Source: an uncultured archaeon
GTDB lineage: Archaea; Asgardarchaeota; Thorarchaeia; Thorarchaeales; Thorarchaeaceae
Length of the DNA: 11,149 bases
Assembly: GCA_964473825.1 (NCBI GenBank)
Contig: CAYYQL010000057.1
Location: 1-11,149, forward strand
Direction: 5' to 3'
Part shown: piece after piece, positions 1-4,118 of the stretch
How positions within the stretch are numbered: the first letter of the stretch is position 1
Layout: each line of letters opens with the position of its first letter
The notes under the pieces: model-generated
What the model saw: the letters and a program-made list of their open reading frames with translations, nothing else
What the model was told of the DNA's origin: nothing
Databases searched by the model: none
Translations under genes and position numbers: made by a program

Positions 1-350
1 ATCTCAGGCTCTTCAACTCCGTACAGCTTGGCGAAATACTGGAGATTCTCCTGTGCCGACATTGTAAGGTAGAGAGTATGATTTCCCTCTTCGGGTAGTA
101 CGCCTATGCTCTGTCGAACGGCAACAGGTTCTCTCAATATGTCATGCCCAGCGACTTGAGCTGTTCCTGATGTTGGTCTCAGTAGTGTGCAGAGCATCCG
201 AATTGTTGTCGTCTTTCCTGCGCCATTTGGACCGAGGAGACCGAAAATAGTTCCCTTTGGGACTTCGAGGCTGAGATTGTCCACTGCAATCAGGTCGCCA
301 AACCGCTTGGTGAGTTCAGATATCACAACATCGCTCACAAGAATCACCAT
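1..350 (-). CDS. ABC transporter ATP-binding protein (multidrug/ABC-2, DrrA/CcmA-like), 3' part truncated by the window edge
   Basis: Not in the ORF track. Manual reverse-strand translation gives MVILVSDVVISELTKRFGDLIAVDNLSLEVPKGTIFGLLGPNGAGKTTTIRMLCTLLRPTSGTAQVAGHDI...TMSAQENLQYFAKLYGVEEPE, with Walker A GPNGAGKT. Start is ATG at 350 or GTG at 338 (preceded by SD-like GGTGAT). Confidence 0.95.
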   Translation of the reverse strand, partial: MVILVSDVVISELTKRFGDLIAVDNLSLEVPKGTIFGLLGPNGAGKTTTIRMLCTLLRPTSGTAQVAGHDILREPVAVRQSIGVLPEEGNHTLYLTMSAQENLQYFAKLYGVEEPE

Positions 351-460: not shown

Positions 461-727
461 TCAAGTAGACAGCATCTTCTCAACGACAGCCGTGGTTGTG
501 TCCTTGATGCCTGGTATGGAGTGTATCCTGTGAACTGTAATATCATACAGGTCCTCAAGGCTCGCAACCTCAAGCCGTATGATTATATCGTAGACTCCTG
601 TTGTCACTGCGATCTTCGTCGCCTCATCTATCAAACGTAGCTGCTGTAGTACTTCGTCGGTCTTCCCGAGCTCAATTTCCATCAGGAGGTACGCCAATAC
701 AGTTTCAGTCATCTCTCTCTTCTCCAT
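461..727 (-). CDS. Stand-alone Lrp/AsnC ligand-binding (RAM) domain protein, no HTH
   Basis: Pattern AYLLMEIELGKTDEVLQQL...AVTTGVYDIIIRLEVASLEDLYDITVHRIHSIPGIKDTTTAVV matches the AsnC C-terminal beta-alpha-beta-beta-alpha-beta domain (TGxYD and PG[IV]xxTxT motifs). Alternative start is ATG at 712 (83 aa). Confidence 0.9.
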   Translation of the reverse strand: MEKREMTETVLAYLLMEIELGKTDEVLQQLRLIDEATKIAVTTGVYDIIIRLEVASLEDLYDITVHRIHSIPGIKDTTTAVVEKMLST

Positions 728-741
728 GTTTGTATCTCAAT

Positions 742-2001
742 CTATCTGTAATCCTTTAGAACAACCAGAGTCTGTACGGTCTTGACTCCTGTGATATCTT
801 GAATCTTTCTCAGAATTATCTTTCTTGTCTTCGGCAGACTTCTGCTCCTAACGCTCAGCAGATAGTCGTGTTTTCCTGCTAGAGCAGAGGCGGTTTCAAC
901 ACCGCGAATCGCATAGAGGTCAGACAACAGGTCAGGAGTCCTAGGTTGGACTTTCACAAGAATGATAGACCTGACATCAGATGCCTCGAGGGCAATCACC
1001 CCAATCATTACCAATGTGATACCGGACACTCTCAACGTCCACAGAAAGGCATCAGAAGATATGAACCCAAACGCTCCGGGCAACAGAAGATTTCCAACTA
1101 GGGTCATTGGTATGCCGAGCACTACCGATATTGCGGACAAAGAGTTGACTACGGCCATTGAGCCCCGACCCAACGCCCGAACATACAGGACAACAGACAG
1201 GAACGTCGTAACGGAAGAACCAACCATGAAACCTAGAAGAGGAATGAACTTTGCTGTTATCGTATCCCAGTTCGACTCGTTCATGCTCGGTAAGGAGAGT
1301 AATGTGAAGACCAAGTCAAGAACGAGCAGGGACCAAACACGCATGTTCAACGAGTCAACTCGGAGTCCAGGACGCACTTCATATCGTTTTGCACGACGCT
1401 GGTAGTATGTAGTCAATGCAGATGAGATATTCATTGGAATGAGAACAATCACGAGTGTGGCCAAGTCGAAGCCGCCAGGTGATGCACCAATGAGTAGAAC
1501 GCCGAGTAATATCGATAGTATACAGTGAACTTCAACGATGGTTGGAGTATCCTTCTCAGCAAACAGATCTCCCACTAAGAGATAGATTATGACTAGCTGT
1601 CCGTATGGCAGGACTGAAGAGGTATCAGACCTTCCAACCAGAACATAATAGGAATACGTGGAGATCCCAGCAAATATGCCGGCAAACACGACGTACATCA
1701 ATGGCTTCTTAGGAAGAATGGAGAGACGTCCGAAGTCAGGATCGAGGTCATAGCCCAGAGGTCGCCGTTTACCATCACGTTGACGGTTCAGACTCAAAAA
1801 CGCCACGAGAGATACGGTCACAAGGAACGATACCCATTGAGACATGAAACCGAAGACCAGCGGGTCGTCTATTGCTGTGTTAACAGCAACAATATCAAAA
1901 CCCACAGAAATAGTGCGCATTACTCCCGAACCTAATGCCAGAAGATAGAGAGTCTGGATACTCGAGAATCTTCCCACTGGCCTCTGACTACGGCTACTCA
2001 A
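742..2001 (-). CDS. DMT/EamA-like multi-pass membrane protein with a C-terminal Lrp/AsnC (RAM) domain
   Basis: About 10 hydrophobic segments in two halves with DMT-like signatures (YYVLVGRSDTSSVLPYGQLVIIYLLVGDLFAEK...ILLGVLLI; YVRALGRGSMAVVNSLSAISVVLGIP...GITLVMIGVIAL). The last 78 aa (745-978) match RAM: SIILVKV...IRGVETASALAGKHDYLLSV...IQDITGVKTVQTLVV. TTG start preceded by GGGGTGGAG. Confidence 0.8.
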   Translation of the reverse strand: MSSRSQRPVGRFSSIQTLYLLALGSGVMRTISVGFDIVAVNTAIDDPLVFGFMSQWVSFLVTVSLVAFLSLNRQRDGKRRPLGYDLDPDFGRLSILPKKPLMYVVFAGIFAGISTYSYYVLVGRSDTSSVLPYGQLVIIYLLVGDLFAEKDTPTIVEVHCILSILLGVLLIGASPGGFDLATLVIVLIPMNISSALTTYYQRRAKRYEVRPGLRVDSLNMRVWSLLVLDLVFTLLSLPSMNESNWDTITAKFIPLLGFMVGSSVTTFLSVVLYVRALGRGSMAVVNSLSAISVVLGIPMTLVGNLLLPGAFGFISSDAFLWTLRVSGITLVMIGVIALEASDVRSIILVKVQPRTPDLLSDLYAIRGVETASALAGKHDYLLSVRSRSLPKTRKIILRKIQDITGVKTVQTLVVLKDYR

Positions 2002-2070: not shown

Positions 2071-2991
2071 CTAGTCGGAGTCTTGGTCGTCTTGATGCTT
2101 CTGAGCAAGAATGAACTCGTCGAATGTCATTCTCTTTCCGGCCTGGAGCTTCTCGACGGCTTCCTCCACGCGTTCCTTCTGTTGAGCCTTCTGTCTCGCT
2201 TTTCGTTCAGTTCGAGTGGCATCGTGCTTGTCAGTCACTTGTTTCCGAATCTTGCCGTTAATCTTGTCAATCTCGGAACGAATCTCCTTCAGACGCTCTT
2301 CGCCAGCCTTTACCTTCTTCAGCCATTCAACGAATTTGTGATGAGCGGTATCAGCAGCTTTCTTCTCTTGCTCTAACTGCGGGCGAATCCGAACAACTTC
2401 TTGATGGTGAACTTGGGACTTCTCTGACAGATCTAAAACTGCTTGATGGGCATCTGAAGCCTCTTCTTTCAGCCTTCGGGCCAAGCGCCGCAGTTCATTG
2501 ATACGATCTTGCTTCTCTTTCTCTTGGCCGATGCGAATCAGCTGCTTCTCTATTTCAGTAATCTCTTCAACAATAGAACGTTCCTCATCGATTGTGAGCT
2601 GTTCAGTCTGCTGTTTCCATTCGAGTTCTTCAACCCTGCGCATCATCTTTCGTTGATCCGTAGACGGACTCCCAACAAGGTTGCTTCTTAGCTCTCGAAT
2701 TTCGTCGTAGATACCCTTCAACTGCTGGTGGATTGCTGTCCGTCTAGACTTAGCATCCTGGATCTTCTCGTTTATCAGATCGCGCTCTTCACGTTCAGCC
2801 TTCACCGATTCAATCAGAGCACGGACTTCTTTATTGTGCTCGTCACGAATGGCTTTGTACTCCCGCATCTTATCGCGATCTCTGCGGAGCTCCTCAAGCT
2901 CATCTCTCGCCTTTGACTTGAGTTCCCGCATGTTTGCCCTTAGACCCTCAACATCTTCCACTGAGTCAGTTTTATCAGCTGCTTCTGTCAA
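2071..2991 (-). CDS. Archaeal coiled-coil protein (COG1340-like)
   Basis: E/K/R-rich heptad sequence with family-like motifs ELEWKQQTEQLTIDEERSIVEEI, SQVHHQEV, ADTAHHKFVE and C-terminal EKLQAGKRMTFDEF. TTG start with SD-like GAGGT about 10 nt upstream. Confidence 0.8.
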   Translation of the reverse strand: MTEAADKTDSVEDVEGLRANMRELKSKARDELEELRRDRDKMREYKAIRDEHNKEVRALIESVKAEREERDLINEKIQDAKSRRTAIHQQLKGIYDEIRELRSNLVGSPSTDQRKMMRRVEELEWKQQTEQLTIDEERSIVEEITEIEKQLIRIGQEKEKQDRINELRRLARRLKEEASDAHQAVLDLSEKSQVHHQEVVRIRPQLEQEKKAADTAHHKFVEWLKKVKAGEERLKEIRSEIDKINGKIRKQVTDKHDATRTERKARQKAQQKERVEEAVEKLQAGKRMTFDEFILAQKHQDDQDSD

Positions 2992-3218: not shown

Positions 3219-4118
3219 TCAACAAAGAGCGAATGTCTGAGCTATTCGTGCGGATATGTCAAAATCAGTAACACTCTGGATACCACTCCAACCAGGAGTT
3301 GCATTGACTTCAAGGACGTAGAGATTCCCATCACAGCTAGGAATGATGTCCACCCCAACAAAACGCCCTTTCACACAACTAGCAGCTTGTAGAGCTAAGT
3401 CTTCGACATCAATGTCATTTGGTCTTGCCACTCCGCCCGCGTGAATGTTAGTGACTATCCCGTCTTGAGTATGTCTCTGCATGGTTGTTATCACTTCGCC
3501 TTCAAGAACCAATGCTCTGATATCAAAGCCGGGACTGGAAACCAGTTCCTGCAACAGAAAGGCACCCCGTCCGAAGAGCTGACTATGAAACTTCAAGTAA
3601 TCGTAGATGTTCTCAAGATCAAAGGGATCGCTTATCAATTGAACACCGACTCCACCAAACCCGACCAGAGGTTTCAATACACAGGGATTCCTCTCAAGCA
3701 CGAATCTGGCCGCCTCCTCAATGGACTCTGTAATCAGAGTATCAGGAACGGGAAGTCCTGCGGACACCAAACGTCTCATGCACTCAGCTTTGTTTCGCAT
3801 CTGCAGTATCGACCAGACAGAATTGATGATTTCAATGCCCAGATCCTGCATTGCTGATAGGATTCCAACACGATGAAAGAATGTTCCAATGTCCATACCG
3901 CCAAGGTCTAAGACAAGTACTCGTCTGAGACTACTCAGGTCTTCTCCTTCACATGTAAGTCTATGAGAGTCAGAAGACATCTGTCGCATGACTTTCCAAG
4001 GAAGGACTCTCCTGGTCTGTATTCTGAGGGCGGCAAAGGATGCCTCAAGTGAGGCGGCCCTTCGGGAGGTGTGGTCTGATGAGAATAGGCCAATCTTCGA
4101 GCTTGATTCTGAAAGCAT
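3219..4118 (-). CDS. RimK-family ATP-grasp alpha-L-glutamate ligase (possibly MptN-like, tetrahydromethanopterin:glutamate ligase)
   Basis: Motifs RNKA, GLPVPDT, VLKPLVGFGGVGV, LLQE, DIRALV, TNIHAGG, FVGVDII, VLEVNATPGW. The FHRVGILSAMQDLGIEIINS segment resembles the MptN/Orf5 subgroup, but the substrate cannot be determined by eye. Confidence 0.9.
   Translation of the reverse strand: MLSESSSKIGLFSSDHTSRRAASLEASFAALRIQTRRVLPWKVMRQMSSDSHRLTCEGEDLSSLRRVLVLDLGGMDIGTFFHRVGILSAMQDLGIEIINSVWSILQMRNKAECMRRLVSAGLPVPDTLITESIEEAARFVLERNPCVLKPLVGFGGVGVQLISDPFDLENIYDYLKFHSQLFGRGAFLLQELVSSPGFDIRALVLEGEVITTMQRHTQDGIVTNIHAGGVARPNDIDVEDLALQAASCVKGRFVGVDIIPSCDGNLYVLEVNATPGWSGIQSVTDFDISARIAQTFALC

What the first reader, a model, noticed from the sequence alone, without database searches (positions are those of the whole stretch)
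461..978. Adjacent free RAM domain is charge-complementary to the membrane-fused RAM domain: putative heteromeric two-part module
Seen: the stand-alone RAM gene starts 14-29 nt after the fusion's stop on the same strand. By manual count the fused RAM has 15 K/R versus 7 D/E, and the free RAM (from Met at 712) has 14 D/E versus 7 K/R. The equivalent helix reads SLPKTRKIILRKIQ versus SLEDLYDITVHRIH. Known: RAM domains form dimers and octamers, and archaeal stand-alone (demi-FFRP) domains can hetero-assemble with other Lrp-family proteins. Inference: the soluble subunit docks on the transporter to complete a ligand-binding ring, analogous to soluble RCK subunits or GlnK-AmtB, or it is sequestered at the membrane and released to modulate Lrp regulators.
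Basis: partly seen in the sequence, partly recalled or inferred. Interest (0 to 1): 0.75.

Follow-up and report, generated by a model that had tools for sequence, protein, structure and literature searches.

The report
Transporter-tethered sensor domain with soluble partner

Summary
On the minus strand, a 419-aa DMT-fold transporter ends in a RAM domain (net charge +8). It is followed 14/29 nt later by an 83-88-aa stand-alone RAM gene (net -7).

Evidence that the two genes form one module:
- The free RAM lies next to the fusion, on the same strand, in every locus with enough flanking DNA (71 of 73). It is downstream in the window's family and upstream in all other families.
- Across 201 Asgard genomes, partner-class RAMs occur only in genomes that have the fusion.
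- RAM-less homologues of the membrane domain have no RAM neighbour (3 of 3).
- Fused and free RAMs form two separate old clans.
- A heterodimer model scored ipSAE 0.75 (best control 0.01), but it shows the textbook RAM dimer and may be recalled from solved structures.

The charge asymmetry is conserved: the fused domain is positive in 70 of 70 Asgard loci. Only the fused half is unusual, because acidic RAM domains are normal in this genome. The basic residues cluster at the membrane-tethered pole, lie mostly outside the modelled interface, and do not co-vary with the partner's charge.

New here: the fused domain always lacks the first Thr of the ligand TxT motif, while the free one keeps it.

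This scan had already noted the module in about 20 other genomes.

The parts
742..2001 (-). Gene for the 419-aa DMT-fold transporter with a C-terminal RAM domain (TTG start at 2001, stop at 744-742)
   Evidence: ORF. Full-length orthologues of about 419 aa are found across Asgard genomes. AlphaFold2 model has mean pLDDT 83.
982..2001 (-). Membrane domain, residues 1-340: ten TM helices, N- and C-termini cytoplasmic, basic TM2-3 and TM6-7 loops carrying short beta strands
   Evidence: Secondary structure of the model. Foldseek matches DMT transporters 5y78, 5oge, 7paf, 5i20 and 9i20 at probability 1.0, with TM-score by target 0.58-0.79. Pfam EamA scores only 18.4 bits against a cut-off of 28.2. 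Atlas look-alikes are EamA/DMT clusters.
745..975 (-). Fused RAM domain, residues 343-419, net charge +8/+9. It starts 2 residues after TM10. It keeps G-x-[YH]-D but has [IV]-x-T in place of T-x-T
728..741 (-). 14-nt spacer between the fusion's stop and the first ATG of the free RAM ORF (29 nt to the likelier ATG at 712). GGAG at 725-722 looks like a Shine-Dalgarno site
   Evidence: Sequence. In other genomes the spacing ranges from a 17-nt overlap to 55 nt.
461..727 (-). Stand-alone RAM gene (88-aa ORF; probably 83 aa from the ATG at 712), net charge -7, with the canonical G-x-Y-D and T-x-T ligand motifs
   Evidence: Pfam E 3.4e-13. PDB profile hits to FL11, STS042 and DM1 at E about 1e-14. 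Motif counts.

Best explanation
The two genes encode one cytoplasmic sensing unit attached to a transporter.

The membrane protein is a 10-TM carrier of the drug/metabolite-transporter (DMT/EamA) fold. Its last helix runs almost directly (2 residues) into a RAM domain, so that domain sits on the inner face of the membrane. The neighbouring 83-aa gene supplies a second, soluble RAM domain. That domain pairs with the tethered one through the canonical RAM beta-sheet dimer interface.

In known RAM assemblies the ligand pocket forms between dimers. It needs the G-x-x-D loop of one subunit and the T-x-T strand of another. Here the soluble subunit keeps both half-sites, while the tethered one keeps only the G-x-x-D half. 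The assembly is therefore inherently asymmetric, and the tethered domain alone is predicted to be unable to form complete sites.

Binding of a cytoplasmic amino acid or similar metabolite to this unit is inferred to switch the transporter allosterically, most plausibly as an overflow exporter. This is the same logic as an Lrp-regulated EamA exporter gene, but applied at the protein level.

The positive charge of the tethered domain is best read as a membrane- or transporter-facing pole. The soluble partner has ordinary RAM acidity, which may help it dock against the basic cytoplasmic face.

Shown: domain identities, fold, conservation of the pair, co-occurrence, motif asymmetry and charge pattern.
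Inferred: physical heteromer, ligand class, gating and direction of transport.
For: Domains and fold:
- Domain assignments.
- Ten TM helices followed by a RAM domain, with TM10 ending at residue 340 and beta-1 starting at 343.
- DMT fold by Foldseek.

Conservation of the pair:
- A free RAM lies adjacent on the same strand in all 68 Asgard loci with enough flank, out of 70 sampled. The other two are cut by contig ends.
- The same holds for 3 of 3 very distant fusions, including one from a MAG labelled Nanohaloarchaea, with 4-17-nt overlaps.
- Gene order is reversed between the window's family (free RAM downstream) and all 12 other families (upstream). The downstream copies nest inside the single partner clan (support 0.91 and 0.875), and fused RAMs form their own clan (72 of 73, support 0.975).
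- No third gene is conserved beyond the window's family.

Co-occurrence:
- 93 of 201 genomes have the fusion. 90 of these have a partner-class RAM (90 bits or more) next to it, and the other 3 are explained by contig ends or partial matches.
- None of the 108 fusion-less genomes has a RAM above 75.4 bits.
- Three RAM-less homologues of the membrane domain have no RAM neighbour.

Interaction and ligand site:
- Heterodimer model: ipSAE 0.75 against a best control of 0.01. That mark was reached by 58 of 80 solved complexes and 2 of 110 mismatched pairs. The runs agree in at least 98% of contacts, and the partner's pLDDT is at least 88.
- Ligand-site residues follow the Grp structure (PMC2504300). 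The free RAM has G 73/73, D 73/73, first T 64/73 and second T 71/73. The fused RAM has G 71/73, D 70/73, first T 0/73 (I, V, M, F or L instead) and second T 56/73.
- The free RAM is the slowest-evolving part (mean p-distance 0.49 against 0.58), and the partial mirror-tree r is 0.33.
- Stand-alone RAM DM1 forms a hetero-octamer with FL11 in vitro (review PMC2995911).
Against: - There is no experimental evidence of binding, ligand or transport.
- The modelled heterodimer is the textbook RAM dimer, so the high score may reflect likeness to solved Lrp-family dimers. No comparison of homo- with hetero-dimers could be run.
- Known RAM ligand pockets need two dimers. A 1:1 heterodimer on a monomeric carrier would not form one, so the stoichiometry is open.
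- No DMT-RAM-RAM fusion was found among the 150 best family representatives.
- The partner profile was built from genes next to fusions. The 64-75-bit RAMs in fusion-less families could therefore be diverged orthologues.
- The mirror-tree statistic does not remove shared phylogeny.
- The substrate is unknown. Pfam EamA is below threshold, and RAM-less relatives are unannotated.
Confidence: 0.55

Rival explanations
1. One reading: opposite net charges on the two RAM domains are the specificity determinant. Electrostatics would favour the heterodimer and disfavour both homodimers.
For: - The sign asymmetry is conserved: the fused domain is positive in 70 of 70 Asgard loci, and 63 of 68 pairs are (+,-).
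- In an acidic halophile proteome the fused domain is still 10 units more positive than its partner (-5 against -15).
- Twelve profile columns are consistently basic in the fused domain and acidic or neutral in the free one.
Against: - The free domain's charge matches generic RAM domains of the same genome.
- Net charges of partners do not co-vary (r = 0.04).
- The modelled interface is mainly hydrophobic beta-strand contacts, with few of the differential columns in it.
- About 8 of the 12 differential columns map, by fold topology, to the pole joined to TM10.
Confidence: 0.2
2. The soluble RAM does not form the canonical dimer with the tethered RAM. Instead it acts as its own homo-oligomer, which docks reversibly on the basic cytoplasmic face of the transporter as a plug or regulator, in the manner of GlnK on AmtB.
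For: - The free RAM keeps both ligand half-sites, so it could form complete homo-oligomeric sites like DM1 or STS042.
- The transporter's cytoplasmic loops and RAM pole are strongly basic, and the free RAM is acidic.
Against: - The free RAM tracks the fused RAM, not the membrane domain: RAM-less homologues lack it.
- The heterodimer model is confident.
- The fused domain's degenerate T-x-T motif suggests that it depends on a partner.
Confidence: 0.15
3. The soluble RAM works elsewhere, for example by modulating full-length Lrp regulators as DM1 does with FL11. It would be linked to the transporter gene only through shared ancestry or co-regulation, or by being held at the membrane and released.
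For: - DM1-FL11 hetero-octamers are known in vitro.
- This genome encodes about four full-length Lrp-type ORFs and at least five other stand-alone RAM ORFs.
Against: - Partner-class RAMs were never found without the fusion in 108 fusion-less genomes.
- Adjacency survived a gene-order swap and often involves overlapping stop and start codons.
- The partner forms a dedicated clan separate from the other stand-alone RAMs.
Confidence: 0.08

Closest known systems
Stand-alone RAM ('demi-FFRP') proteins DM1 (PDB 2e1a/2cvi) and STS042 (2zbc), and the DM1-FL11 hetero-octamer
   Same: The free protein is a RAM-only polypeptide of about 80 aa. It has the same G-x-Y-D and T-x-T ligand motifs and matches these chains at a profile E of about 1e-14. 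Hetero-assembly of a stand-alone RAM with another RAM protein has been shown in vitro.
   Different: The partner here is a membrane transporter, not a DNA-binding regulator. The pairing is fixed in the genome and old. The review states that the physiological role of stand-alone RAM proteins is unclear.
MthK-type RCK gating ring (tethered plus soluble regulatory domains); from my own knowledge
   Same: A ligand-binding domain tethered to the C-terminus of a membrane transport protein is completed by soluble copies of the same domain.
   Different: The fold differs (RCK Rossmann-like against ferredoxin-like RAM). MthK is a channel, not a carrier. Its soluble copy comes from an internal start in the same gene, whereas here a separate, diverged gene supplies it. 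No ring has been shown here.
Lrp/AsnC regulator plus EamA-transporter gene pairs, e.g. PA2577-PA2576 of Pseudomonas aeruginosa (PMC8707732)
   Same: A RAM-domain sensor is coupled to an EamA/DMT-type transporter (title and abstract).
   Different: In that pair the RAM domain controls transcription through an HTH. Here neither protein has an HTH, and the RAM domain is part of the transporter.
GlnK-AmtB (soluble sensor docking on a transporter); from my own knowledge
   Same: A small soluble metabolite sensor is encoded next to a transporter gene and acts on it directly.
   Different: PII is a different fold, and AmtB carries no tethered copy of the sensor domain.

Membership tests
Pfam PF01037 Lrp/AsnC ligand-binding (RAM) domain | Profile match above the gathering score (25 bits) | tested here: met
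   The free protein scores 49.7 bits and the fused domain 42.8 bits.
Pfam PF01037 Lrp/AsnC ligand-binding (RAM) domain | Beta-alpha-beta-beta-alpha-beta fold | tested here: met
   The AF2 model has strand 343-351, a short helix 359-363, strands 368-373 and 380-386, helix 389-402 and strand 406-413. Foldseek matches DM1 and TTHA0845 with TM-score by target 0.82-0.84.
Pfam PF01037 Lrp/AsnC ligand-binding (RAM) domain | Amino-acid backbone contacts: G-x-x-D loop plus T-x-T strand, as in Grp D102, T132 and T134 | tested here: inconclusive
   The free RAM has both motifs (D 73/73, T 64/73 and 71/73). The fused RAM has D 70/73 but the first Thr in 0/73. Residue mapping follows PMC2504300. No binding assay was done.
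Lrp/AsnC (feast/famine) transcription regulators | N-terminal helix-turn-helix DNA-binding domain | tested here: not met
   Neither protein has an HTH match. NCBIfam AsnC and LysM models match the RAM part only and score far below their cut-offs.
Drug/metabolite transporter (DMT) superfamily | Ten TM helices with the DMT fold | tested here: met
   Ten helices in the model. The top 36 Foldseek hits are all DMT transporters (TPT, Vrg4, SLC35B1, LicB, YddG, CST, PfCRT) at probability 1.0.
Pfam PF00892 EamA | Profile match above the gathering score (28.2 bits) | tested here: not met
   18.4 bits, E 0.0028, one repeat only. RAM-less relatives have no Pfam hit. The protein belongs to the fold but lies outside the curated family.
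Tethered-plus-soluble regulatory assembly (RCK-ring-like) | Physical hetero-oligomer of the tethered and free domains | tested here: inconclusive
   The model supports binding: ipSAE 0.75 against a best control of 0.01. That mark was reached by 58 of 80 solved complexes and 2 of 110 mismatched pairs. Runs agree in at least 98% of contacts, and the partner's pLDDT is at least 88. The model resembles solved RAM dimers, and there is no experiment.
Tethered-plus-soluble regulatory assembly (RCK-ring-like) | Ligand-dependent gating of transport | not testable with these tools
   Needs transport assays.

The most novel reading that the evidence does not exclude
Asgard archaea, and some other archaea, gate a DMT carrier directly with an obligate, asymmetric hetero-oligomer of one tethered and one soluble RAM domain. 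The soluble subunit supplies the T-x-T half of the amino-acid pocket that the tethered domain has lost. This would be the first physiological role assigned to a stand-alone RAM protein, and the first RAM-regulated transporter.
Probability: 0.45. Interest if true: 0.75.

Novelty: new variant of a known kind. Interest (0 to 1): 0.6.

Why it matters
RAM domains are known as the effector modules of Lrp/AsnC transcription factors. The role of the many HTH-less stand-alone RAM proteins in archaea has stayed unclear (PMC2995911).

A phylum-wide, strictly co-inherited pairing of a free RAM with a RAM-tailed transporter gives such a protein a concrete, testable job. It points to post-translational, metabolite-gated control of a DMT carrier. 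This would be a regulatory architecture otherwise known from RCK or CBS domains.

It also offers a natural case of a homodimeric domain that has evolved into an asymmetric heteromer with divided ligand-site residues.

I found no description of this module in the searchable literature. Databases label the fusion only as 'Lrp/AsnC ligand binding domain-containing protein' or, wrongly, as a transcriptional regulator.

Tried and rejected
- BLASTP of the free RAM against the fused RAM gave no alignment. The two are related only at profile level.
- The 'longer' homologue search (735-2095 aa) found nothing. It would not have seen fusions of about 500 aa. The exhaustive profile search showed no DMT-RAM-RAM protein among its best 150.
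The taxonomic range outside Asgard therefore rests on a few named cluster members.
- Net-charge covariation between partners was absent (r = 0.04).
- Mirror-tree partial correlation was r = 0.33 with permutation p = 0.001. I treat it as weak, because permutation does not remove shared phylogeny.
- A search for a conserved third gene found only family-level synteny: DUF7121 upstream and an ABC ATPase downstream.
- Atlas and Pfam searches for a substrate hint returned only generic EamA/DMT labels.
- A homo- versus hetero-dimer comparison could not be run, because only one complex job is allowed.

Full report
**Anatomy**

The finding spans two adjacent minus-strand genes.

The first gene, 742..2001, encodes a 419-aa protein.
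- Residues 1-340 form ten transmembrane helices, and residues 343-419 form a RAM domain. Pfam PF01037 matches at E 4.9e-11.
- The AlphaFold2 model has mean pLDDT 83, with TM10 ending at residue 340 and the first RAM strand starting at 343.
- Foldseek places the membrane part in the drug/metabolite-transporter fold. It matches the triose-phosphate translocator, Vrg4, SLC35B1, LicB and YddG, all at probability 1.0.
- Pfam EamA is below its cut-off. Language-model look-alikes are generic EamA/DMT clusters.
- With ten helices and an arginine-rich N-terminus, both termini should be cytoplasmic. The RAM domain therefore sits directly under the membrane.

The second gene, 461..727, encodes a RAM-only protein (PF01037 at E 3.4e-13).
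- Its likely start is the ATG at 712. GGAG lies 9 nt upstream of it, and orthologues are 82-84 aa.

**Check of the observation**

**Is the pair conserved?**

Hits named Thor-, Loki- and Hodarchaeota place the window in Asgard archaea.
- A six-frame search of 201 genomes of the phylum found the full-length fusion in 93 of them, spread over many families.
- I fetched 70 loci. All 68 with enough flank have a RAM-only ORF directly adjacent on the same strand, and the other two are cut by contig ends.
- In the window's family the free RAM is downstream. In all 12 other families it is upstream. Two genomes have one on each side.
- Three very distant fusions of 378-396 aa, one from a MAG labelled Nanohaloarchaea, also have an upstream RAM gene that overlaps the fusion's start by 4-17 nt.
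- Three RAM-less homologues of the membrane domain have no RAM neighbour.
- No third gene is conserved outside the window's own family.

**Dedicated partner**

- In a tree of 155 RAM domains, the fused domains form one clan (72 of 73, support 0.975).
- The adjacent free RAMs form another clan (68 of 73, support 0.875). It excludes the other RAM domains of this genome.
- The downstream copies of the window's family nest inside the partner clan. The difference in gene order is therefore a rearrangement of one old pair.
- A profile of the partner scored 90-126 bits in 90 genomes, all of which have the fusion, and always at the adjacent position. The best score in any of the 108 fusion-less genomes was 75 bits (compared).
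- Three fusion genomes lack a full partner hit. All three are explained by contig ends or a partial match.
- Caveat: the profile was built from fusion neighbours, and related genomes are not independent observations.

**Charge**

- The fused RAM is net positive in 70 of 70 Asgard loci (mean +6). The free RAM averages -3 to -5.
- 63 of 68 pairs are (+,-), and in 68 of 68 the fused domain is the more positive.
- Other RAM domains of this genome range from -1 to -10, apart from one at +4. The free subunit is therefore ordinary, and the fused one is the derived state.
- The columns that are basic in the fused domain and acidic in the free one are 2, 8 and 10 (beta-1), 25, 36, 44 and 46 (end of beta-3) and 49-57 (start of alpha-2).
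- By the topology of the fold, columns 2, 25, 44, 46 and 49-53 lie at the pole where beta-1 leaves TM10. This is the membrane-facing pole, but the placement is an inference because no coordinates were available.
- Partner net charges do not co-vary (r = 0.04).
- I therefore read the basic charge mainly as a membrane- or transporter-facing surface. The acidic pole of the partner may sit against the basic cytoplasmic loops.

**Heteromer**

The complex model supports binding of the fused tail and the free RAM.
- ipSAE was 0.75 against a best control of 0.01. That mark was reached by 58 of 80 solved complexes and 2 of 110 mismatched pairs.
- The runs agree in at least 98% of contacts, and the partner's pLDDT is at least 88.
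- The interface is the canonical RAM dimer: beta-2 against the partner's C-terminal strand, and beta-1 against beta-3. The score may therefore come from memory of solved Lrp-family dimers.
- A homodimer comparison could not be run.

**Ligand site**

In the Grp structure, glutamine is held by D102 in the G-x-x-D loop and by T132 and T134 of a subunit in the neighbouring dimer (PMC2504300).
- The free RAM keeps all of these residues.
- The fused RAM keeps G and D, but the first Thr is hydrophobic in 73 of 73 sequences, and its L3 loop is one residue shorter in 49 of 73.
- The two halves are thus systematically non-equivalent. This fits an obligate asymmetric assembly in which the soluble subunit supplies the intact T-x-T half-site.

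**Mechanism**

I propose a tethered-plus-soluble RAM sensor that binds a cytoplasmic amino acid or related metabolite and switches the carrier allosterically.
- An analogy is the tethered and soluble RCK domains of MthK (from my own knowledge).
- It would be the protein-level counterpart of Lrp-controlled EamA transporter genes (PMC8707732).
- Stoichiometry, ligand and direction of transport are unknown.

**Novelty**

Literature searches found no description of a RAM-fused transporter. The scan's own notes record the same module in about 20 other genomes, with one earlier follow-up reaching the same reading.

Noticed in passing
window 2071-2991 (-) and 3-350 (-): A DUF7121 coiled-coil gene lies upstream and an ABC-transporter ATPase gene downstream, both on the same strand as the pair. 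They are syntenic in about 33 of 35 loci of the window's family and in almost none outside it. The 69-nt gap before the fusion is GC-rich with no obvious TATA box, so the fusion may be co-transcribed with the DUF7121 gene.
   Followed up: partly
L045:3775-4023 and L046:1935-2186 (oriented coordinates): Two genomes from other families carry a third RAM-only gene downstream of the fusion, in addition to the upstream partner. These extra copies group together and fall outside the main partner clan.
   Followed up: partly
P0199/P0272 cluster; L076-L078: RAM-less homologues of the membrane domain (about 320-470 aa, no Pfam hit) occur in cyanobacteria such as Planktothrix and Phormidium, and on contigs that look bacterial. 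The carrier family is wider than the fusion and is uncharacterised.
   Followed up: partly
L071 (MAG labelled Nanohaloarchaea): In this halophile-type locus both RAM domains are acidic (fused -5, free -15), yet the difference of about 10 units persists. Its neighbours include an M20 peptidase, two acetyltransferases and an MR/MLE-family enzyme.
   Followed up: no
L072/L073: In one distant lineage the pair is flanked by two class-Ib tRNA-synthetase genes (Tyr/Trp family), one of them directly upstream on the same strand. This may hint at an aromatic amino acid as substrate.
   Followed up: no
G000 contigs C7:2138-2407, C16:25077-25310, C6:97927-98175, C19:10925-11173, C4:109432-109734: The window's genome encodes at least five further stand-alone RAM ORFs and about four full-length Lrp-type ORFs. 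None of them belongs to the partner clan.
   Followed up: partly
G100 contigs C266 and C138: One genome has two copies of the fusion, each with its own adjacent partner RAM. This is either a duplication or a mixed bin (contamination 5%).
   Followed up: no
window 3219-4118 (-): A RimK-like ATP-grasp gene (PF08443, E 3e-27) lies two genes upstream of the fusion. I did not check whether it is linked to the pair.
   Followed up: no
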